This document shows, in pieces, positions 6,909 through 46,101 of a DNA stretch of 64,000 nt. The stretch spans positions 1,743,515 through 1,807,514 of the forward strand of contig OY769902.1 of assembly GCA_963669175.1 (NCBI GenBank), in the 5' to 3' direction. The stretch comes from a bacterium (GTDB lineage Bacteria; Electryoneota; Electryoneia; Electryoneales; Electryoneaceae). The notes beneath the pieces were generated by a model. The model worked only from the letters and a program-made list of their open reading frames with translations, was not told the DNA's origin and searched no databases. Every line of letters starts with the position of its first letter. Within the stretch, counting starts at the first letter, position 1. A program made the position numbers and the translations under genes.

Positions 6909-7019
6909 AATCTATTAATATACTCTAACCTGACTTCAGAAGAAAAGCGAGGTGATTTTCTCTCGACGAAGCTGTTGTAAAGGGAATAAGCAGTTCGCGA
7001 AAGTTCTTGTTGAGTGGAA

Positions 7020-7634
7020 AGCAATCAGCCTGCTTCAGCAGGCTCTTTTTAGCACCCGGCTGAAGCCCTGTCTCTTGCTCACATCTTCGTGTTTCTGCCA
7101 CCCCAGAGGGGGTGGTATATTTTAGTGTAGGGTTGACGCTGTCTGTTTAGCGTCTACCCTACGAAAAAGATCAAACCTTATCTCAACCCTGGAAGGGTTG
7201 CATAACGTATAATTTACACCCAATTGGTTTGTATAGAATATAAAATGCGTTATTTCCTGTATTTATTGAACGTACTAATATGAATCGCGTATTATGCAAC
7301 CCTTCCAGGGTTGATTATTCGTTAGAATACCTGACATAGTGTACAGGCCAAACAGACGGCCTGTACACTATGCTAAAATAGGGAATCCCGCCGGGATTCT
7401 AAAAATGCTATGTCCACAACTCTTTTACTGATACAGCTTTCAGAAGATGTGAGTAAGAGACAGGGCTTTAGCCGGGTGGATTAGTGTAACTAAATAAAAG
7501 AGCGCGCTTTAGCGTGCTTGCTTGAACAACAGATTGCTGTTTTGGAAAGCACCCTGAAGGGCGCTCGATATAGTTGTTATCTTTGTCCCCCGGCTAAAGC
7601 CGGGGGCTAAGGGGAGCAGGCTAAAGCCTGCTAA
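7020..7634. mobile_element. composite MITE-like element (repeat family A, long copy) with nested inverted repeats
   Basis: Termini agcctgcttcagcaggct-ctttttag-cacccggctgaagcc (left) and cccccggctaaagccggggg-ctaagggg-agcaggctaaagcctgct (right) are inverted relative to each other. The same termini bound the 210-bp copy at 40126..40336. An internal segment at 7497..7585 matches the reverse complement of 40195..40275. Further nested IR pairs at 7050-7095/7425-7475 and 7190-7215/7285-7310. Confidence 0.5.
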
Positions 7635-7855
7635 TACTAATGGATAGAACCCCCTTGAGGCGAATACTTATGGATAGAATTCCCTTGAGATAGTAAACGG
7701 AAAGAAGCGCTTTTCAGAAACTGTGATAGAAGACAGATGTTTCGGCGAGAATAACTTTCGCTAATCTGAAGCCGCAAGAACTTCCGAGAATACCATACGT
7801 GGAACATATCCATTGTGACACGGTACAAGTTTCAGGACGAAAACAGGCTGGATTC

Positions 7856-14245: not shown

Positions 14246-14480
14246 GTACATTGTATGGTTGAAAGCAAAGAGATGGAAAAAGGGGACTGCCTCCTTTCCC
14301 TGGAGTAAAACTATCCCACTGTGAACATGGACCGGGAAAGGTGGCTGTACCCTTTTCCTTGCGAGCAGGCAAGTAGTCCATGGAAAAGGGTACAGTTTCC
14401 TTTTCTGCAAGTTCAGCGAGAGTGTTTTGTGCGAGCATGAAGAAAAGGATTCCGTCCCCTTTTCCTGACAGCATGTCTAT
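14246..14480. repeat. repeat family B, copy 1 (about 235-bp hairpin-rich element)
   Basis: Shares roughly 80-90% identity with 35414..35663 and 44698..44962. Built from four imperfect palindromic modules of GGAAAAGG...CCTTTTCC type. Short ORFs inside differ in length between copies. Confidence 0.6.
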
Positions 14481-16384: not shown

Positions 16385-16564
16385 AGACCTGACGAAACTG
16401 GCGCTGCATTAGACCTGACGAATCTGGCGCTGCATTAGACCTGATGAAACTGGCGCTGAATTAGACCTGATGAAACTGGTGCTGCATTAGACCTGACGAA
16501 ACTGGCATGGAGTAGACCTGACGAAACTGGCGCTGCATTAGACCTGACGAAACTGGCATGGAGT
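16385..16564. repeat. tandem array, 7 copies of a 25/26-bp unit (agacctgacgaaactggcgctgcatt)
   Basis: Seven head-to-tail units with a few substitutions; two units end in ggcatggagt. No spacers, so not CRISPR. Lies between the BI-1 gene and a small OMP gene. Confidence 0.85.
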
Positions 16565-27995: not shown

Positions 27996-28030
27996 CTCGC
28001 TCTCCCTTTTTAGATCCACTCACAGGCTTA

Positions 28031-28065
28031 ACAGGATAATAGGATGAAAGGATTTCAAGGATGAT
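28031..28065. promoter_or_regulatory. (AGGAT)n direct-repeat module upstream of dapB
   Basis: acaggataataggatgaaaggatttcaaggat. The same module occurs upstream of dapA (29714..29746) and glnA (31408..31447). Confidence 0.35.
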
Positions 28066-29682: not shown

Positions 29683-29713
29683 GCTTCCACTCCCAATATC
29701 TTACCGCAGGACT

Positions 29714-29890
29714 CACAGGATAATAGGATGAAAGGATGCCAAGGATAACTGCACAAATATACTTAAAAGATAAAGAAAAGCAATGATACGATTAGAATAA
29801 TAAATGCTATTAATCAATAATATAATTTGTCACCCATAAAATGTGTTTTTATCCTTGAAATCCTTCTATCCTATCATCCTGTTAAGCCTG
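29714..29890. promoter_or_regulatory. dapA upstream module: (AGGAT)n array, AT-rich spacer, inverted (ATCCT)n array
   Basis: cacaggataataggatgaaaggatgccaaggat (29714..29746), about 100 bp of AT-rich DNA, then atccttgaaatccttctatcctatcatcctgt (29851..29882). Same architecture as the glnA upstream module. Confidence 0.4.
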
Positions 29891-29945
29891 TTTTGTATCC
29901 TGAATATCTGTTGAAATCCTGTTTATCCTGTAAATGCTTGCTCGT

Positions 29946-31361: not shown

Positions 31362-31407
31362 CTGTCTTCTCCTTCTATGTTCGCTTTTTCTTTTCCGACC
31401 TTTGGGA

Positions 31408-31578
31408 CTCACAGGATATTAGGATGATAGGATGATAAGGATAAGGCGAAAAGTTCTATTGAAAAGAAAAGATTTTCATTTGATCTTTCAAAAGTAAATA
31501 ATAAATAATTGATTACAGGGTTCTTGCTAATATTTTGTATCCTTGATATCCTTCTATCCTATCATCCTGTGCGACATG
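31408..31578. promoter_or_regulatory. glnA upstream module: (AGGAT)n array, AT-rich spacer, inverted (ATCCT)n array
   Basis: cacaggatattaggatgataggatgataaggat (31408..31447), AT-rich spacer, then tatccttgatatccttctatcctatcatcctgt (31538..31572). Lies between glnB and glnA. Confidence 0.4.
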
Positions 31579-35318: not shown

Positions 35319-35413
35319 CTGATTCATACTGACTCACAGGATGTACAGATGGAGATTTATAGCGATTCCCATTATTATTCCGTCATGTGCAAGATCAGTG
35401 AAAGGTCAACCAT

Positions 35414-35663
35414 ATGGTTGGAATAAAGGATAAGGATATGGAAAAAGGGGACAGTTTCCTTTCCCTGGGGCAAAGCCTTCCCGCTGTGAGCATGGACCGG
35501 GAAAGGTGGCTGTACCCTTTTTCTTGAGAGCAGGCAGGACGTACACGGAAAAGGGTACAGTTTCCTTTTCCACAAGTTCGGCGAGAGTTTTTCATATGCG
35601 CGCGAGGAAAAGGATCCCGTCCCCTTTTCCCGGCAATCCTTATTATGTCGGAATAAAATCGAG
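35414..35663. repeat. repeat family B, copy 2
   Basis: Aligned with 14246..14480 and 44698..44962. Ends in ggaataaaatcgagaa as copy 3 does. Confidence 0.6.
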
Positions 35664-35772
35664 AACAGCAATACAAGATGTACAGGATGTTGAAGGATGA
35701 TCAGGATGGGAAATGATTGCTTGAGATAACTTTAGAATATAGTAGCGTGTCAACTTTTTACCTTTTGCTGTT

Positions 35773-36045
35773 ATCCCCGGCTTCGACCGGGGATCTCGCG
35801 GGATATCGTGTAAAGCCCGTTTGGCACTACTTGTGCGTCGTGGTGTACGTCTAACAGTCGGGATACTGGTAGCGCAACCTCGAGATCCCCGTTCAAGCCG
35901 GGGATGACATGGGGATGGGGGATGGGGATGGGGGATGGGGATGACATGGGGATGGGGATGACATGGGGATGGGGTGGGGATGACATAGGGACTGGGGGAT
36001 GGGGATGACATGGGGATGGGGGATGGGGATGACATGGATATTGGG
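35773..36045. repeat. hairpin repeats (family C) plus G-rich heptamer tandem tract
   Basis: Hairpins atccccggcttcgaccggggat and gagatccccgttcaagccggggatgacat, followed by about 140 bp of GGGGATG/GGGGATGACAT units. The overlapping 173-aa minus-strand ORF is a low-complexity artefact. Confidence 0.7.
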
Positions 36046-37035: not shown

Positions 37036-38547
37036 TTGGGGATTGAAAGCGAGAAAAGGATGCCAGGGACAGTTCATCAGGAAGCCGGGAAGACAAGATG
37101 CTGTATACGTATTTATAGCACCGTGGGCTTTATGCTCCTGTTGGTGACTGCCATTCTCGTTTCCGGATTAACAATTCCTGTCACCGCACAAGAGGATGAA
37201 GGGTGGGAAGTGTTTATCGTGTCCAAGGACAATGAGACGGATGCGATGTTGTACGCCTCGGTTGTCAGGGAAGAATCCAACTACGACCCTGAGATCGCAC
37301 AGTTTGGCAATGCCTTTCGTCTGATTATTGCAGATTTGCCTACGAGCGCGGAAGCGGAAGAAGTCGCTGCGGAAATGCGTCAGCTTGGTTTTACCCAGGC
37401 ACGTGCTGTCGTTGGGATGCTGGCCCAGCAGCACATGTCAGCGATGGAGGCAGTACAGGCAACGCCACGACCAGCTCCACAACAACCAGCTTCTACACCG
37501 GCCGCTTCGCCTTCACCGCAACCGACTGGGCAGCAGCTACCTGTTGCGACAACGCCACCTCAGAGTACGCCAGCCGTGTCCAGCGCTGCAATCCCGGAAC
37601 CGAGCCCGGAGCCGACAACAGCCGGCGAGACACCGCTGATTGCGATGAGCAACGAAGACAGCATGCAGGATGCCAACCAGAACGCATGGGAAGATCAGCC
37701 TTTAACAGTGCCCACATCCTCACAACAATCACAGGCGCAGCCTCAGACGCAACCACAGCAACAAGCGATACCGACAACGCAGTCTGCGGTTCAACCTGCT
37801 GTGCAACCCAGTGCGCAACCGGTATCACAGCCAACCACAGCGCCGCAAACGCAGGCTGATCCGGAAACACCGTTGAGCAGTCCGTTGTTTGATACACCGA
37901 TATCCCATCGAGATACGGCTGCGAATCAAGCCAATGCCGCCCCAATTGCAGTACCCGTTCAGGAAGAAAAAGAAGAACCTGTTATTACGCCGCCGCCTGT
38001 TGTTCAGCCGGTAGCGCAGAAGCAGCAGGAAAAGCCTGAACCGGAACCGGTGGTGAAGAAAACGCCAGAGCCGACGCCTGCGCCAGCGACCAATCGTAAC
38101 GATGATCAAGGTCCACCGATCAAGTGGGTGCGTGTGACGGATCATGGGGAAGTGGAAGTCCCGCGTGGCCATGCAGAGCTGAATCCTGCGCCTCCGGAAC
38201 GAAGTGTTTCCAGTACGGCACCAGCGCCGACGTCAGCACCGGTAGCCACGAGAAAGCCGCAGCCGGTTACCTCCCCGGATCGCCATCTTCCGCCGCCCAC
38301 TCCTGACGAGGAACTGGCGTGGCGTATCCAGATCATGGCGCTGTTCCAGTCACCATATGAGACGGCTGTGCAGGAGGCGAAACAAGCGGAACGTGACCTT
38401 GGTGTCCCGGTACGGGTGAAAGTGACTGCCGGGGGCGCTTTGCTGCTCCAGGTGGGGAAATACCGTTCTGAGGCCGATGCGATGCGCGCGCTTCCTATCG
38501 TAAAACAACTCGGCTACAAAGACTCATACCTCATTCATACCCGGTAA
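37036..38547 (+). CDS. SPOR-domain protein with long Pro/Gln/Thr-rich linker
   Basis: C-terminal SPOR-like pattern (WRIQIMALFQSPYETAVQEAKQAERDLGVPVRV...LLLQVGKYRSEADAMRALPIVKQLGY). N-terminal SPOR-like segment after a signal/anchor. Central low-complexity P/Q/T/A linker of about 250 aa. True start probably at an internal Met. Confidence 0.65.
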   Translation: MGIESEKRMPGTVHQEAGKTRCCIRIYSTVGFMLLLVTAILVSGLTIPVTAQEDEGWEVFIVSKDNETDAMLYASVVREESNYDPEIAQFGNAFRLIIADLPTSAEAEEVAAEMRQLGFTQARAVVGMLAQQHMSAMEAVQATPRPAPQQPASTPAASPSPQPTGQQLPVATTPPQSTPAVSSAAIPEPSPEPTTAGETPLIAMSNEDSMQDANQNAWEDQPLTVPTSSQQSQAQPQTQPQQQAIPTTQSAVQPAVQPSAQPVSQPTTAPQTQADPETPLSSPLFDTPISHRDTAANQANAAPIAVPVQEEKEEPVITPPPVVQPVAQKQQEKPEPEPVVKKTPEPTPAPATNRNDDQGPPIKWVRVTDHGEVEVPRGHAELNPAPPERSVSSTAPAPTSAPVATRKPQPVTSPDRHLPPPTPDEELAWRIQIMALFQSPYETAVQEAKQAERDLGVPVRVKVTAGGALLLQVGKYRSEADAMRALPIVKQLGYKDSYLIHTR

Positions 38548-40125: not shown

Positions 40126-40336
40126 AGCAATCAGCCTGCTTCAGCAGGCTCTTCTTAGCACCCGGCTTCAGTCGGGGTGTTCATGGTGACAAAGAAATGA
40201 CGAGCGCCCTTCAGGGTGCTTTCCTGAATCAGGACTTGTACAAGGCAAGCACGCTAAAGCGCGCTCAGAATGATCTCCGCATCTTTACACCCCGGCTGAA
40301 GCCGGGTGCTAAAAAGAGCAGGCTAAAGCCTGCTAA
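40126..40336. mobile_element. MITE-like element (repeat family A, short copy) with terminal inverted repeats
   Basis: Left end agcctgcttcagcaggct-cttcttag-cacccggcttcagtcggggtg. Right end caccccggctgaagccgggtg-ctaaaaag-agcaggctaaagcctgct. Together these form a roughly 45-bp TIR around a 110-bp core. Termini match those of 7020..7634. Confidence 0.55.
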
Positions 40337-40342
40337 AATTGT

Positions 40343-40414
40343 CAGATAGCAGAATGAATTCAGATTGCAGAATGAATTCAGATTGCAGAATGAATTCAGA
40401 TAGCAGAATAAATA
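40343..40414. repeat. tandem array, 4 copies of an 18-bp unit (cagattgcagaatgaatt)
   Basis: Direct head-to-tail repeats immediately right of the MITE-like element. Confidence 0.8.
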
Positions 40415-40639: not shown

Positions 40640-41881
40640 TTAAATCGCCTCGCCAGCTCCAAGATAGAAACGTACCGGCCCCTCCGGCGCGTAACAGAAA
40701 TCAAGTCTGAACACCAGGTCCGGCGGGAGTACGGCATGAATCCCGATACCGAAACCGTGACGCGTCTCATGCCAGCCGCACTGCGGATCACCAATCACGC
40801 CTACGTCATAGAACGGCACAATCTCATAGTCCAGCAGTGAGGGGGGCAAAACATGCCACAGGTTGTGCAGGGGAACCCAGGGAAAGCCGGAATTGTGGGC
40901 GATGGTATGATAGTATTGTACTCGACCGGATAAATAGCGGCGTCCCCATTCACGCATGTAAGGCTGTCCACGGTGATTTCGGTCCCAGCCCAGGAATTGC
41001 TGCACGGGTTGCGGCGCTTCAAGCTGGAAAATGGTCCAGGCACGCAGGTAGAATCGGCTACGTTCGGTAACAGGTATCGCCCAGGCTATCTTCCCTTCGA
41101 AATCCATATCGAAACGAGGGACAGCGTAGGCGTCTCCATCGGTACGTCCCGCACGAACCGCCGATTCAAATACCCAGCCATCGGTGGGACGAACCGGGTT
41201 TGTGTTTGAGTAGCGGGCACGGAAACCGATCAGTTCCACATCCGCGTCTTCAAATCGTGCAAATGTACTGCGGGGGATATTTCTTCCATCGGTATAGAGC
41301 AGGGATTTTTTCGGATCGTTGGGATCACGCAGGTCACGCGCTTCCCTTGTGCGAACAAAGCGTACCAGCGTGGTCGGTCCTATTTCCCATCCGCTGTTTC
41401 CCATTTTTTTCAGTGCGGAGATGTTAAACTCGTATTGAGTCTGGAGCGCTCCGGCGAGAATTTGCGGATCATTATCGGATAACGTATAAATGTAGAGAAC
41501 TTTTTGTGCAATCCATGAAATATCCAGGATTCGCCAATTTTCGGTTTCAATTTCCATGGAGGAGATACCGCCTTCGAGCAACCCGCCCAAGGAGCCGTCT
41601 ATGAAGAAGAGTGAATAAAAACCTGGCTCTTTGGAAATACCGCCTCCAGCGCCCACGACCAGCCCTAAATCACTGTTGGCGAAGGCATAGGGCGCTCCCA
41701 GGAAACGGACTTTACCGGTTTCTTCTGTCGGATTTGCCTGTTCCACCAGCGTATCCAGCATCGTTACAGCCTGCTGAGGGGCGTCCTGTTGATCAGATTG
41801 GGCCACTGTTTGAGAGGAAGGGCTGAACCCGTTCGCGAGGGTAAGCGTAAATGCAAGAAAACCGATAACAAATAGCCTCAT
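40640..41881 (-). CDS. secreted Omp85-superfamily-like outer-membrane barrel protein (paralog 1)
   Basis: Signal peptide MRLFVIGFLAFTLTLANG. Shares colinear motifs with the divergent neighbour (RGQP...TIAH...FYDVG..GDP..GW...RHG.G.G....LPP.LV.R.D). LGG..LRG-type motif resembles Omp85 barrels. Confidence 0.45.
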   Translation of the reverse strand: MRLFVIGFLAFTLTLANGFSPSSQTVAQSDQQDAPQQAVTMLDTLVEQANPTEETGKVRFLGAPYAFANSDLGLVVGAGGGISKEPGFYSLFFIDGSLGGLLEGGISSMEIETENWRILDISWIAQKVLYIYTLSDNDPQILAGALQTQYEFNISALKKMGNSGWEIGPTTLVRFVRTREARDLRDPNDPKKSLLYTDGRNIPRSTFARFEDADVELIGFRARYSNTNPVRPTDGWVFESAVRAGRTDGDAYAVPRFDMDFEGKIAWAIPVTERSRFYLRAWTIFQLEAPQPVQQFLGWDRNHRGQPYMREWGRRYLSGRVQYYHTIAHNSGFPWVPLHNLWHVLPPSLLDYEIVPFYDVGVIGDPQCGWHETRHGFGIGIHAVLPPDLVFRLDFCYAPEGPVRFYLGAGEAI

Positions 41882-42030
41882 GATTTTCCCCGGTATATGG
41901 ATCTCTTTCGGACTTGAGAATTGTACCTGGTATAGCTGGAATGATTTTACTGCCGGGAGGTATGTTATGCAAATGCTGATACCACTATATTTATCGTTTC
42001 AGTAGCTTTTCTCTACACAGGCCTTTTTGC

Positions 42031-43179
42031 ATGCTGGGAATACACTTGCAAAGTCGTTTAACAACCGTTCCTTTACGCATCTCCCTGATTGCGTTCGCTC
42101 TCCTGTTCGCTGTACCCGGCCACGCACAGCTTCCCGGTAAAGGATTGGGCTATTTCGGCTGGAAAGTGATTGGTATTCCCTATGTATATGGCAATAGCGA
42201 TGACGGTCTGATCTTCGGGGTGTCAGCCGAAGCCACGTCACCGGGCGGCCAATACATGCAAGGGTATGTACAGGCTACATCTGGTGGGGCTCTCGCGGTC
42301 CGTGTAAAAGGTGAACTCCAATTCAGTTCTTTCCGGATTGTTGGTCGGGTGAAGGCGCAACAGGGAAATGAGTATCTCTACCCGACATCAGCAGTTGATC
42401 CCAAATGGATGGCCCGGGCGGATGTGTACCGTCTGGAAGCGCAGAGCGCCATGCTGTTCGAGGCGGCGTCACATCTTGAGATCGGACCTGATGTGGAAGT
42501 ATTGCTGACCGATGCAAAGAAACTGGAAGATCAAAATGAACAATCACTGCCCGACAATTCTATTGCACGATTTACACGCGGCTCTCATGCGCTGATCGGT
42601 GTGCGGCTGCGGTATCGTACGATGGACCCGATACGTCCGCTGCGTGGTTTTATGGTTGACGGCGCGTTTCGGATTGGCAGGCTGGGTGGTGCGACAGATA
42701 TCCGCTTTGATTATGCCTCCGAGGTTACTCTTGCCGGCGCCATCCCGATATGTTGTGACCTGCGCTGGTTTAATCGCATGTACGGCAAGCGCCAGATGGA
42801 AGCCACCCCTCCTATACAGACGGAACTGGGTGGTATCAAGACGCTACGGGGGCAGCCATCCGGACGAGACTATGGCAGGACTCAATTGGCCGGACGTTCG
42901 CAGGTCCATTGGACTATCGCGCATGGCTGGCGGGGCTTCTTTGGGACGCTTCATTCGATTATCCATGGCATCCCGGCATGGAAAGTCGATGTGGAAACCG
43001 TGGCGTTTTATGATGTGGGTATGACCGGTGATCCTACGTACGGCTGGCGGAAAATGAGGCATGGGGTGGGGGGCGGTTTCAGGATTGTCTTACCCCCGAC
43101 ACTGGTACTACGTGCGGATGTCGCGGTCTCACCCGGTGGAAGCCCGGCATTCTATATTGGTGTAGGTGAGGAATTGTAA
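42031..43179 (+). CDS. secreted Omp85-superfamily-like outer-membrane barrel protein (paralog 2)
   Basis: Signal peptide (LRISLIAFALLFAVPGHA). Motifs LGGIKTLRGQP, TIAHGWRG, FYDVGMTGDP. Clear paralog of 40640..41881. Confidence 0.45.
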   Translation: MLGIHLQSRLTTVPLRISLIAFALLFAVPGHAQLPGKGLGYFGWKVIGIPYVYGNSDDGLIFGVSAEATSPGGQYMQGYVQATSGGALAVRVKGELQFSSFRIVGRVKAQQGNEYLYPTSAVDPKWMARADVYRLEAQSAMLFEAASHLEIGPDVEVLLTDAKKLEDQNEQSLPDNSIARFTRGSHALIGVRLRYRTMDPIRPLRGFMVDGAFRIGRLGGATDIRFDYASEVTLAGAIPICCDLRWFNRMYGKRQMEATPPIQTELGGIKTLRGQPSGRDYGRTQLAGRSQVHWTIAHGWRGFFGTLHSIIHGIPAWKVDVETVAFYDVGMTGDPTYGWRKMRHGVGGGFRIVLPPTLVLRADVAVSPGGSPAFYIGVGEEL

Positions 43180-43185
43180 GCAACA

Positions 43186-44664
43186 TTGATATACTCGGTT
43201 TTGTTGAATTACTCAGGTCTTGCAAAAAGTAAAAGGCATGGTTCATTTTACAACCAAGAAGACGCCAAATCTCTTCAGTTGTAAAGGAGATAACCATGCC
43301 TGTCATAACATCGTCATTTTTTGAGTTACTTGCAAGTTTTCGTCCGGTGTTTCGGAAGCCTGTTTATGAGAATTTTGTACTGTTGGCTATCGGCGCTGTA
43401 TTGAATTTCGGTCGTCAGACAGTCTGTCAGTTATTACGTGTATTTCCCGGACCGGTAGCGAAGAGTTGGTCTTGTTATCACCATTTTCTTTCGTCTGCCA
43501 ACTGGTCCGCCCTGAAACTGGCAAAGATTCTCTGCTCTTTGATACTTGATCAGATTGCCGAACGTGATCCGATCCTTCTGATCGTGGATGATACCCTGAT
43601 CCGTCGTTGGGGAAAGCATGTTTACCAGATATCCGTTCACCGCGATCCCGTCCGTTCGGGCAAAGCAGGGACAAAAGTCGTTTATGCTCGCGGTCTTCAA
43701 TGGATGGTGATTTCGATTGGTTTGCGCACCCGTTATCGTTCGCAGATCTGGGCGCTTCCTGTATTCGTGTTTCCGGAGATCGCCAAAAAGCGTGTTCCGG
43801 AATCGAAGTACCGCAGTCCTGTACACCTGATCATTCTCGGGGCGCGTCTGCTGCTTCGATGGTTCCCGGACCGCCGTTTCCTTATCCTTGCCGACGGTAC
43901 GTTGAACTCCCACGAACTTCACCGTTTCGTGGCGAAAGAGAACCGTCTTGCTATCATCGGGCATTCGCGTATGGATACGGTGCTGCATGATCCGCCGCCT
44001 CCACCGAACGGGAAACGTGGACGTCCGCGCAAAGTCGGTGACCGTTTGCCCGCACCGGGACAAGAGGCGAAAAAGCCGGATGCTGCCTGGGAAAAAGCGT
44101 CTTGCCTCTGGTATGGGAACAAGACAAAAGACCTGTTGCTGCTTTCCGGTGTTGGCTGCTGGTACCGTTCCGGGGAAGATGTTGTCCTGATACGCTGGGT
44201 GGTGGCGCGTGATCCCGACGGCAAAAACAAGGACATTGTCTTATCTACATCCAAAACAGACTTAACCCCGGCCCAGGTTGTCAGCTCATATGTACGACGA
44301 TGGGCGTTGGAAACCACGTTTGAAGAGTCACGGAAACATCTGCGTATCGAAACGACAGAAAACTGGTCAAAAAAATCGATTCAAAGAACAGTGCCCCTGC
44401 TGTTTGGCTTGTTCAGTCTGATGGTTGTTTGGTATAGTCAGCAGCCAGAGCAGAAAGCTGTTGCGCAAACAGAGTGGTACACAAAACTGGAACCCAGTTT
44501 CTCAGACGTGCATCAGGCATTGCGTGCTGAATTGTGGATGCAGGCGATTTTTCCCGAATGCAAGCAGCCACGCGGATTCTTAAAAAAGAAAAGCAATATC
44601 CTTAAATTCCTTATTCACAAAGCCGCTTGATCCGCTAAAATGAGCAAAACCGAGTGATATAGTT
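43186..44664 (+). mobile_element. insertion sequence (IS4/IS701-superfamily), apparently intact
   Basis: Single transposase ORF flanked by imperfect terminal inverted repeats tgatatactcggttttg (43188..43204) and caaaaccgagtgatata (44646..44662), which share an 11-bp perfect core. Confidence 0.6.
43296..44630 (+). CDS. DDE transposase (IS4/IS701 superfamily)
   Basis: Candidate catalytic residues in LIVDDT and ILADG, and the Y-x2-R-x3-E-x6-K signature in YVRRWALETTFEESRKHL. 444 aa. Confidence 0.75.
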   Translation: MPVITSSFFELLASFRPVFRKPVYENFVLLAIGAVLNFGRQTVCQLLRVFPGPVAKSWSCYHHFLSSANWSALKLAKILCSLILDQIAERDPILLIVDDTLIRRWGKHVYQISVHRDPVRSGKAGTKVVYARGLQWMVISIGLRTRYRSQIWALPVFVFPEIAKKRVPESKYRSPVHLIILGARLLLRWFPDRRFLILADGTLNSHELHRFVAKENRLAIIGHSRMDTVLHDPPPPPNGKRGRPRKVGDRLPAPGQEAKKPDAAWEKASCLWYGNKTKDLLLLSGVGCWYRSGEDVVLIRWVVARDPDGKNKDIVLSTSKTDLTPAQVVSSYVRRWALETTFEESRKHLRIETTENWSKKSIQRTVPLLFGLFSLMVVWYSQQPEQKAVAQTEWYTKLEPSFSDVHQALRAELWMQAIFPECKQPRGFLKKKSNILKFLIHKAA

Positions 44665-44697
44665 GTTCTGTCATATGTTCATTTGCTGTATCAGTGC

Positions 44698-44962
44698 GAG
44701 ATCCACTGTATGGTTAATGGTTAGAGGAAAGGAAATGGAAAAAGGGGACTGCCTCCTTTCCCCGGGGTAAAGCCTTCCCGCTGTGAAAATGGACCGGGAA
44801 AGGTGGCTGTACCTTTTTTCTTGAGAACAGGCTGGAATTATACGGAAAAGGGGATAGCTTCCTTTCCCACGAGTTCAGCTAGCGTTTTTTGTGTGAGTGC
44901 GAGGAAAAGGATTCCGTCTCCTTTTCCCGACAATCTCATCACAACGGAATAAAATCGAGAAT
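44698..44962. repeat. repeat family B, copy 3
   Basis: Directly right of the IS. Aligned with copies at 14246 and 35414. Confidence 0.6.
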
Positions 44963-45051: not shown

Positions 45052-46101
45052 ATGCGCTTACGCATCAACCTTGGCTACGACGGGACAGATTTTAAAGGCT
45101 GGCAACTTCAGCCCGGGGATACCCGTACGGTCCAGGGGGAGCTGGAAAAAACCATTGGCCAATTGTTCGGCAATGTGCGTCGCTTGCGTGTCATTGTCGC
45201 TGGACGTACTGATGCCGGGGTTCATGCAGCCGGACAGGTTTGCCACGTGGATACGCCGGAGAACCTGGAAGTCGAGGAAATCGAGAAAGGACTACGCGCC
45301 TTGCTGCCGGGCGATGTACAGATCTGGCGCGTACGAAGAACCTTTAACCATTTCCACGCCCGTTACTGGGCACGGGAACGAGTTTACGTATACCGCATCC
45401 TGAAGAAACCGGACGTTTTTCTGCAACGGTTCGGCTGGTGTCCTGAAATGAAGTTTGATCCCGCCCGCGCTGCGGAGCTGACCGATGTTTTCCTGGGCCG
45501 TTATAACTTCAAACCCTTTACCACCAAGCTGCACAAGGGTGATGATCCAATCTGTGAAGTAAAAGAGGTTAACTTCATTGAGACGCCGGACTGCTGGCTG
45601 TTCCAGGTACGCGCCGACCGTTTCCTGCGCAGGATGGTACGCGCACTGGTCAGTACGCTTGTCTACATGGCGGCGGAAAAACTGGACCCGGACGAGGTTC
45701 GCGAAGTGATTACTTCTGGGATAATGACCAAGGAAGCATGGGAACGCTATAAGCGTGAACATCCGCTGATTCAATACAAAAATGAAGACAAGCCTGATAC
45801 GAATAGTGAGGGAGAGGCTGGAACTACTGTTTCAGGCGTGAGTTCCACAGATATAATTAAAAGCGATTATGAACCGGCAGGCGGTCAGGCACGCTATATA
45901 CCCGAGGAAAATGAGGATAATACTGGACAAAAGAGTATACATGGCGACAATTTAATTGAAGTAGCCAATAATAACAAAGGGTTAAGTCGGCCTGTTGCAC
46001 CGCCTGCGCCTCCGCAAGGGCTGGCATTGGTACGGGTCCGTTACGATATTGACGACGAGTTTGATACACATTCCTTTTCAACTTGGAGAATACCTTCATG
46101 A
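45052..46101 (+). CDS. truA: tRNA pseudouridine(38-40) synthase with about 100-aa C-terminal extension
   Basis: N-terminal [18 protein letters not shown] and catalytic-Asp region RTDAGVHA. The C-terminal roughly 100 residues are low-complexity (E/N/G/P-rich) and lie outside the core TruA fold. Confidence 0.8.

What the first reader, a model, noticed from the sequence alone, without database searches (positions are those of the whole stretch)
40640..43179. Divergently transcribed pair of Omp85-like paralogs, flanked by a MITE and an IS
Two roughly 380-410-aa secreted proteins share colinear motifs (RGQP, TIAH, FYDVG..GDP..GW, RHG.G.G, LPP.LV.R.D) and face away from each other across about 150 bp. 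They are short for BamA/TamA and have no obvious POTRA repeats, so they may be barrel-only Omp85-superfamily members. The MITE-like element lies on one side and the IS directly on the other, suggesting a recombinogenic neighbourhood.
Basis: partly seen in the sequence, partly recalled or inferred. Interest (0 to 1): 0.45.

Follow-up and report, generated by a model that had tools for sequence, protein, structure and literature searches.

The report
Paired barrel-only Omp85 outer-membrane proteins
Two back-to-back genes encode old, diverged copies of a rare outer-membrane barrel protein that has the BamA/Omp85 core but no periplasmic POTRA domains; this is a new lineage-restricted family within an already described class, not a new kind of system.

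Summary
ORF A (40640-41881, minus strand, 413 aa) and ORF B (42031-43179, plus strand, 382 aa) face away from each other across 149 bp. They are 36% identical over 356 residues (E=1e-61), and all the listed motifs are colinear.

Neither window protein reaches any Pfam model. The family is small: 27 clusters at 50% identity among 1.84 billion proteins, from Calditrichota and Ca. Electryoneota metagenome-assembled genomes (MAGs).

The duplication is old. Adjacent pairs of deeply diverged members recur, in tandem, in five other contigs.

The IS is a real 1463-bp IS701-family element with a 5-bp target duplication. The "MITE" is a palindromic repeat with one longer relative in the window.

The function is untested. 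An auxiliary outer-membrane protein assembly role is my best guess.

The parts
40640..41881 (-). Paralog A: 413-aa barrel-only (noNterm) Omp85-superfamily protein. It has a signal-peptide-like N-terminus, a disordered linker (residues 17-52) and a 16-strand barrel (residues 58-409).
   Evidence: ORF. AF2 model pLDDT 83.3, pTM 0.77, 16 strands. Foldseek PDB top 50 are all Omp85-superfamily. Orthologues at 47-68% identity form a clade with 100% bootstrap.
41882..42030 (.). 149-bp divergent intergenic region between A and B.
   Evidence: Coordinates, sequence. It has no repeat elsewhere in the window. Sigma-70-like matches are no more frequent than in shuffled sequence, so the promoters are not defined.
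42031..43179 (+). Paralog B: 382-aa barrel-only Omp85-superfamily protein with a signal-peptide-like N-terminus (helix 13-27) and a 16-strand barrel (residues 45-379). Loop-6 R273-G274 and strand-13 F326-x-D328-x-G330.
43193..44655 (+). IS701-family insertion sequence, 1463 bp. Transposase ORF at 43296-44630. Terminal inverted repeats at 43193-43210 and 44638-44655. 5-bp target-site duplication GATAT at 43188-43192 and 44656-44660.
   Evidence: NF049999 E=4e-86, 289.5 bits against a cutoff of 170; Pfam DDE_5 E=4e-24. Inverted repeats. Flank read-out. Single copy in the window.
40127..40350 (.). Palindromic, non-coding MITE-like element built from short GC-rich hairpins. It lies between paralog A and the cardiolipin-synthase-like gene.
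   Evidence: Inverted arms 40133-40180 and 40287-40334, 48 nt, 85% complementary. Both termini recur at 7003-7061 and 7579-7635. Its termini do not resemble the IS701 inverted repeats (sequence).
40342..40413 (.). 18-bp x 4 tandem repeat (TCAGATAGCAGAATGAAT) that abuts the palindromic element.
   Evidence: TRF score 123, 94% matches.
44679..44961 (.). Copy of an approximately 280-bp dispersed repeat holding four GGAAAAGG...CCTTTTCC hairpins, immediately downstream of the IS. Before the IS inserted, it lay about 30 bp after B's stop codon.
   Evidence: Copies at 14255-14470 and 35383-35665, 81-85% identical. No Rfam family matches.

Best explanation
A and B are two anciently diverged members of a small, lineage-restricted family of barrel-only (noNterm class) Omp85-superfamily outer-membrane proteins. 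The family is found in FCB-group bacteria (Calditrichota and Ca. Electryoneota MAGs).

Shown: each protein is a Sec-type precursor by sequence. The mature part is a single 16-stranded barrel of the BamA/TamA/TpsB fold, and the Omp85 'lid-lock' is kept (an invariant Arg-Gly in extracellular loop 6 and an invariant F-x-D-x-G on strand 13). Strands 1-2 carry a strongly conserved motif (LGAPYxxANSDxG).

Inferred: because the catalytic barrel core is conserved but all POTRA and substrate-docking domains are missing, the proteins most likely act at the outer membrane as auxiliary or specialised beta-barrel assembly (insertase-type) factors working through the strand 1/strand 16 seam. I put this at about 0.35-0.4. 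They are less likely to be the essential general BamA. Adjacent pairs of deeply diverged members recur: divergent here, tandem in five other contigs. This suggests the two barrels have split functions or work together.

The IS701 element and the flanking repeats are later, incidental insertions into intergenic DNA. The confidence value below refers to the identity (barrel-only Omp85 paralogs), not to the mechanism.
For: Paralogy: 36% identity over 356 aa, E=1e-61.

Homology: an exhaustive profile search finds 27 full-length clusters (E<1e-30) and then weaker hits. I Pfam-scanned ten of the hits outside that full-length core. Eight pass the PF01103 gathering threshold; five of those eight are barrel-only (351-390 aa) and two carry one POTRA domain. 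hhalign of the family against 15 such proteins gives probability 99.9%, E=2.2e-32 over 350 columns, with RG aligned to RG and FYDxG aligned to FxDxG.

Motifs: R273, G274, F326 and D328 are invariant in 36 sequences. They lie in the loop between strands 11 and 12 and on strand 13 of the model.

No POTRA: no Pfam hit of any kind at E<=1, and strand 1 starts at residue 45 (B) or 58 (A).

Recurrent pairs: L002, L008, L009, L010 and L011.

Literature: the noNterm class and its proposed auxiliary-foldase role are described in PMC4104836 and PMC11358297.
Against: Neither window protein reaches PF01103 or any other Pfam model. Only 2 of 17 relatives give a PF01103 hit at E<=1. NCBIfam Omp85_fam scores are far below cutoff: 19 and 45 bits against 200. 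The loop-6 motif is RG(Q/E)P rather than the canonical (V/I)RG(Y/F), so lid-lock geometry is inferred rather than shown.

Nothing here tests function. There are no expression data and no conserved partner gene. I have no information on whether the genome also encodes a canonical BamA. Several family members are solitary (L001, L003, L005, L006, L012, L014), so pairing is not obligatory. The 15 Omp85 proteins used for hhalign were picked from hits to the family profile, which favours a match; however, every one of them that I scanned passes Pfam independently.
Confidence: 0.88

Rival explanations
1. The barrels are translocators (TpsB-like, type V secretion) that export one or more specific proteins or surface lipoproteins encoded elsewhere in the genome.
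Confidence: 0.12
2. The barrels are outer-membrane docking partners for a periplasm-spanning AsmA/TamB-like or other envelope-biogenesis protein encoded elsewhere. They would act like the TamA barrel, which pairs with TamB, and serve lipid or glycolipid traffic rather than protein insertion.
For: TamA barrels are among the top structural matches. The tandem X-Y pairs in related MAGs always lie beside a UbiA prenyltransferase / FAD oxidase / short-chain dehydrogenase cluster, which are envelope glycolipid-type genes. In the window the neighbour is a cardiolipin-synthase-like gene.
Against: No AsmA/TamB (DUF490) gene is adjacent in any locus. The neighbouring envelope genes are transcribed divergently, and the ones beside the window pair differ from those in the other loci. 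The synteny could simply reflect shared ancestry among related genomes.
Confidence: 0.13
3. The proteins are passive diffusion channels (porin-like) that merely descend from an Omp85 ancestor.
Against: The lid-lock residues that plug Omp85 barrels, and a strand 1-2 motif, are invariant across 36 sequences that are only about 35% identical on average. That pattern is not expected for a simple pore. No transport or catabolic genes are conserved nearby.
Confidence: 0.08
4. The pair is a recent local duplication or rearrangement product of the flanking mobile elements, with one copy redundant or decaying.
For: An IS and two dispersed repeat families bracket the pair. The window pair is divergent, whereas the pairs in other genomes are tandem.
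Against: A and B are only 36% identical, as far apart as any two clades of the family. Both are full length and keep every invariant residue. The IS has an intact 5-bp target duplication, which marks a simple insertion rather than a recombination scar. GC content is unremarkable across the region.
Confidence: 0.03

Closest known systems
noNterm Omp85 subfamily (Heinz & Lithgow 2014, PMC4104836), exemplified by Leptospira interrogans LIC12252/LIC12254/LIC12258 (Bettin et al. 2024, PMC11358297)
   Same: Signal peptide followed by a 16-strand Omp85 barrel, with only a short (12-40 aa) periplasmic stretch and no POTRA. The loop-6 RG and strand-13 FxDxG lid-lock is conserved. Several diverged paralogs are co-localised on the chromosome. 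Gene neighbourhoods vary and the function is unknown.
   Different: The window proteins get no Pfam hit at all (neither PF01103 nor any DUF) and fall far below the NCBIfam Omp85_fam cutoff. Loop 6 reads RG(Q/E)P instead of (L/M)RG(W/Y). The family comes from Calditrichota and Ca. Electryoneota MAGs, not from Leptospira or Cytophagales. I made no direct sequence comparison with the Leptospira proteins.
BamA (core of the beta-barrel assembly machinery)
   Different: BamA carries periplasmic POTRA domains (five in E. coli) that dock substrates and lipoproteins; A and B have none. Sequence identity in the structural alignment is about 13%.
TamA (translocation and assembly module) and TpsB transporters (FhaC, CdiB)
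   Different: TamA has three POTRA domains and an adjacent tamB gene. TpsB proteins have two POTRA domains, a plug helix and an adjacent tpsA cargo gene. None of these features is present here or in related loci.
IS701-family insertion sequences
   Same: DDE transposase above the NCBIfam equivalog cutoff, terminal inverted repeats and a short target-site duplication.
   Different: Nothing unusual. It is a single copy in the window, and I made no comparison with named ISfinder entries.

Membership tests
Omp85 superfamily (PF01103 / bacterial surface antigen D15 barrel) | 16-stranded outer-membrane beta-barrel | tested here: met
   The AF2 models of B (pLDDT 84.8) and A (pLDDT 83.3) each show 16 long strands.
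Omp85 superfamily (PF01103 / bacterial surface antigen D15 barrel) | Closer in structure to solved Omp85 barrels than to other outer-membrane barrels | tested here: met
Omp85 superfamily (PF01103 / bacterial surface antigen D15 barrel) | Conserved loop-6 (V/I)RG(Y/F) motif | tested here: inconclusive
   Arg-Gly is invariant in 36 sequences (R273-G274 in B), lies in the loop between strands 11 and 12, and aligns with the RG of PF01103 proteins. The following residue is Q/E-P, not aromatic.
Omp85 superfamily (PF01103 / bacterial surface antigen D15 barrel) | FxDxG motif on strand 13 | tested here: met
   F326 and D328 are invariant and G330 nearly so. The motif lies in strand 319-334 (the 13th strand) and aligns with LFxDxG of PF01103 proteins.
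Omp85 superfamily (PF01103 / bacterial surface antigen D15 barrel) | Sequence match to the Pfam model above its gathering threshold | tested here: not met
   Neither window protein has a Pfam hit at E<=1. Only 2 of 17 relatives hit PF01103 at E<=1, best 2.6e-5. Homology is nevertheless supported by profile-profile comparison (99.9%, E=2.2e-32) and by transitive hits.
noNterm Omp85 subfamily | No POTRA or other periplasmic N-terminal domain | tested here: met
   No PF07244 or other Pfam hit. Strand 1 begins at residue 45 (B) and 58 (A). Residues 17-52 of A are disordered, with pLDDT below 50.
noNterm Omp85 subfamily | Sec signal peptide for export, not a lipoprotein | tested here: inconclusive
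   N-terminal hydrophobic helices (A residues 2-17, B residues 13-27) and no Cys in that region. No dedicated signal-peptide predictor was available.
DUF5982-type noNterm Omp85 (Leptospira/Cytophagales group) / NCBIfam NF047779 | Match to the family-specific N-terminal DUF or to the NCBIfam subfamily model above cutoff | tested here: not met
   No Pfam family at E<=1. NF047779 gives 19.4 bits (A) and 44.8 bits (B) against a cutoff of 200, covering the C-terminal part only.
BamA | POTRA domains N-terminal to the barrel | tested here: not met
   no POTRA domains, and no sequence length available to hold them.
TamA / TpsB | POTRA domains plus an adjacent partner gene (tamB, or tpsA cargo) | tested here: not met
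   The window neighbours are a PLD/cardiolipin-synthase-like gene, a SPOR protein, an IS701 transposase, a pseudouridine synthase and a transaldolase. Related loci carry no such partner.
IS701 family insertion sequence | DDE transposase of the family, terminal inverted repeats, short target-site duplication | tested here: met
   NF049999 at 289.5 bits against a cutoff of 170. Inverted repeats at 43193-43210 and 44638-44655. GATAT duplication on both sides.
MITE | Short non-coding element with terminal inverted repeats, present in multiple copies | tested here: inconclusive
   48-nt inverted arms. Only one related element in the window (7003-7635), which is longer and shares both termini.
MITE | Target-site duplication and termini matching an autonomous element | tested here: inconclusive
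   The element boundaries are blurred by the palindromic terminal hairpins, so no duplication could be called. The termini do not match the adjacent IS701 inverted repeats. The rest of the genome was not available.

The most novel reading that the evidence does not exclude
The recurring adjacency of two deeply diverged barrel-only Omp85 genes (divergent here; tandem X-Y pairs in at least five other contigs) may reflect a two-barrel heteromeric outer-membrane machine specific to some FCB-group phyla. Such a POTRA-less hybrid-barrel assembly or translocation device would be distinct from BAM, TAM and two-partner secretion systems.
Probability: 0.1. Interest if true: 0.65.

Novelty: new member of a known kind. 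Interest (0 to 1): 0.33.

Why it matters
Barrel-only Omp85 proteins are a recognised class that remains functionally unexplained. This locus adds a divergent family that standard domain models (Pfam) miss, and it is confined to poorly studied FCB-group lineages. In half of the examined contexts two old paralogs sit side by side. If the pairing is functional, it would give a handle on what POTRA-less Omp85 barrels do. As it stands, the result is mainly an annotation gain: 'hypothetical protein' becomes 'noNterm Omp85 barrel'.

Tried and rejected
1. A direct Pfam scan of A and B found no hit. PDB sequence searches with B alone and with the family profile found nothing meaningful. The Omp85 link therefore had to come from structure and profile-profile methods.

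2. I tried three times to recover the source genome record through exact-protein look-ups, and none was on record. The cluster look-up gave no names. Taxonomy therefore rests on named relatives: Calditrichaeota MAGs and Ca. Electryonea clarkiae.

4. The third homologue search, run with a 36-sequence alignment, saturated its candidate list and returned only 2 proteins.

5. The afdb50 fold library was unavailable.

6. Synteny: no ORF of at least 120 aa from window 26-58 kb has a homologue within 8 kb of family members in L001-L007. The conserved neighbours from L010 that I tested (UbiA, FAD oxidase, SDR, RecJ and three others) are absent from the whole window.

7. I tried to equate A with clade X and B with clade Y using a bootstrapped NJ tree. 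It was unresolved: A+X 31%, B+Y 7%, A+B 10%.

8. Sigma-70 promoter and terminator scans found no more sites than in shuffled sequence.

9. Rfam and tRNA scans of the window found nothing.

10. I considered BamK as a noNterm comparator and dropped it. The paper retrieved describes it as a BamA paralog that can replace BamA, and I did not verify its domain content.
Full report
**1. What is in the sequence**

ORF A (40640-41881, minus strand, 413 aa) and ORF B (42031-43179, plus strand, 382 aa) are intact. They point away from each other across 149 bp. BLASTP of A against B gives 36% identity and 51% positives over 356 residues with 19 gap positions, E=1e-61. The alignment runs from just after the signal peptides to the last residue.

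Both N-termini are hydrophobic, modelled as helices and free of Cys. They look like Sec signal peptides rather than lipoprotein signals. This is read from the sequence; I had no dedicated predictor.

**2. What the proteins are**

Direct domain searches are almost silent.
- Pfam gives no hit at E<=1 for either protein.
- NCBIfam's Omp85_fam model matches only the C-terminal part, at 19 and 45 bits against a cutoff of 200.
- PDB sequence searches find nothing meaningful.

Structure prediction from a 17-sequence family alignment gives confident models:
- B: pLDDT 84.8, pTM 0.78.
- A: pLDDT 83.3, pTM 0.77.
- Each has 16 long beta-strands, spanning residues 45-379 in B and 58-409 in A.

Structural comparison is unambiguous.
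- Foldseek with A gives 50 of 50 top hits in the superfamily.

Sequence homology is recoverable with profiles.
- An exhaustive HMM search of 1.84 billion cluster representatives finds 27 full-length family clusters (E<1e-30), followed by weaker hits.
- I Pfam-scanned ten of the hits outside that full-length core. Eight pass PF01103's gathering threshold. Five of those eight are barrel-only (351-390 aa) and two carry a single POTRA domain.
- hhalign of the family against 15 such proteins gives probability 99.9%, E=2.2e-32 over 350 columns.

The two residues groups that define the Omp85 'lid-lock' (as summarised in PMC11358297) are present.
- An Arg-Gly (R273-G274 in B) is invariant across 36 family sequences. 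It sits in the long loop between strands 11 and 12, which corresponds to loop 6.
- F326-x-D328-x-G330 sits on the 13th strand.
- Both align in register with the RG and FxDxG of the PF01103 proteins.
- One deviation: the residue after RG is Q/E followed by P, not the usual aromatic.

Only about 12 residues (B) or about 40 disordered residues (A) lie between the signal peptide and strand 1. A POTRA domain of roughly 75 aa cannot be present.

These are therefore barrel-only Omp85 proteins. That is the 'noNterm' class of Heinz & Lithgow (PMC4104836). Its best-studied examples are three co-localised Leptospira paralogs (PMC11358297).

**3. Family, distribution and age of the duplication**

The family is rare. 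I found 15 homologues of A and 3 of B in a 5.8-billion-protein index, and 27 clusters at 50% identity in the exhaustive search.

The named sources are Calditrichaeota MAGs and a Candidatus Electryonea clarkiae MAG, which belongs to the FCB group. The window's own record could not be retrieved. Its affiliation with Calditrichota or a neighbouring phylum is therefore an inference.

A belongs to a tight clade: 47-68% identity to its relatives and 100% bootstrap support. B has no relative above about 40% identity, and its position is unresolved. A and B are as distant from each other as any two clades of the family. The duplication is therefore ancient, not a by-product of the local mobile elements.

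**4. Genomic context elsewhere**

No gene near the window pair is syntenic with the neighbourhoods of homologues. No TamB-like, TpsA-like or other partner gene is conserved.

One pattern does recur. In L002, L008, L009, L010 and L011, a clade-X gene is followed 44-270 bp downstream by a clade-Y gene on the same strand. X and Y are about 36-39% identical to each other. The pair lies between a divergently oriented UbiA / FAD-oxidase / short-chain-dehydrogenase cluster and recJ.

Other members are solitary within 6-8 kb: A-clade genes in L001, L003, L006 and L014; a Y-clade gene in L005; and P0036 in L012. Side-by-side pairs of old paralogs thus occur in about half of the contexts examined, the window included, but in a different orientation here. 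This is suggestive of cooperation or split function. It does not prove it.

**5. The flanks**

Right flank. A complete IS701-family element occupies 43193-44655 (1463 bp).
- Its transposase scores 289.5 bits on NF049999 against a cutoff of 170.
- It has terminal inverted repeats whose tips match 11 of 11 bases (ACTCGGTTTTG).
- The same 5-bp sequence GATAT lies on each side.
- This is the signature of a simple insertion, 13 nt after B's stop codon. It is not a recombination scar.

Downstream of the IS (44679-44961) lies one copy of an approximately 280-bp dispersed repeat made of four similar hairpins. Two more copies are in the window.

Left flank. 40127-40350 is a palindromic non-coding element with 48-nt arms, followed by an 18-bp x 4 tandem repeat. 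Both of its termini recur around a longer nested-palindrome element at 7003-7635. 'MITE-like' is a fair label, but I could not establish a target duplication, the copy number or a parent element. Its ends do not resemble the IS701 ends.

Other neighbours are housekeeping genes: a PLD/cardiolipin-synthase-like gene, a SPOR-domain protein, a pseudouridine synthase and a transaldolase-family gene. GC content is unremarkable.

**6. Mechanism**

Shown: the fold, the conserved lid-lock residues, a strongly conserved strand 1-2 motif, the lack of POTRA domains, and the recurrent pairing.

Inferred: outer-membrane location, and a role that uses the Omp85 barrel seam. My best guess, at about 0.35-0.4, is an auxiliary or specialised beta-barrel assembly factor. 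This is the leading hypothesis for noNterm proteins in the literature, which cites Sam50 remaining active without its POTRA domain (PMC4104836, PMC11358297).

The alternatives cannot be excluded with these data: a translocator for unlinked cargo, a docking barrel for an AsmA/TamB-like bridge, or a plain channel. They are ranked in the rival explanations.

**7. Verdict**

The finding is a sound annotation of a divergent, lineage-restricted noNterm Omp85 family, with an intriguing but unproven tendency to occur as adjacent paralog pairs. It is a new member of a known kind and of moderate interest.

Noticed in passing
window 14255-14470, 35383-35665, 44679-44961: An approximately 280-bp dispersed intergenic repeat, 81-85% identical between copies. 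It contains four similar hairpins of the type GGAAAAGGG-loop-CCTTTTCC spaced about 50-60 bp apart. No Rfam family matches it. It could be a REP/BIME-like element or an unknown small RNA or mobile element.
   Followed up: partly
window 6909-7798: An 890-bp gene-free interval packed with nested palindromes. Its outer ends (7003-7061 and 7579-7635) are the same termini as the element at 40127-40350, and further inverted pairs lie inside (for example 7053-7088 with 7443-7478). It looks like a larger or composite member of the same palindromic repeat family.
   Followed up: partly
window 40342-40413: A perfect-register 18-bp x 4 tandem repeat (TCAGATAGCAGAATGAAT, 94% matches) that directly abuts the palindromic element. 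Its function is unknown.
   Followed up: no
L002 4043-10971; L009 2407-10418; L010 2784-11612; L011; L008: A conserved block in related MAGs: UbiA prenyltransferase, FAD_binding_4/ALO oxidase and short-chain dehydrogenase on one strand, then the tandem pair of barrel-only Omp85 genes, then recJ. From memory, the enzyme trio resembles the polyprenyl-phosphate-arabinose type pathway (UbiA-family transferase plus DprE1/DprE2-like enzymes). I did not test that resemblance.
   Followed up: partly
window 37036-38547 (+): A 503-aa protein with a C-terminal SPOR domain at threshold (E=3.8e-4). It is preceded by about 350 residues of Pro/Gln/Thr/Ala-rich low-complexity linker.
   Followed up: no
window 45052-46101 (+): A pseudouridine synthase (PF01416) ORF of 349 aa. 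It has an acidic or low-complexity C-terminal extension of about 100 aa, and its end overlaps the start of the transaldolase-family gene at 46083.
   Followed up: no
window 16385-16557; 28022-28062 with 29851-29891; 29709-29882 with 31405-31570; 35900-36031: Further short internal repeats in the window self-comparison: a 70-bp direct repeat at 91% identity, a 41-bp inverted pair, a 180-bp repeat at 70% identity, and a 31-bp perfect direct repeat. None was examined.
   Followed up: no
L010 8445-9753: In one MAG an EcoRII-N / HNH_2 gene pair (restriction-like) sits between the tandem Omp85 pair and recJ. This shows that this junction also accepts insertions elsewhere.
   Followed up: no
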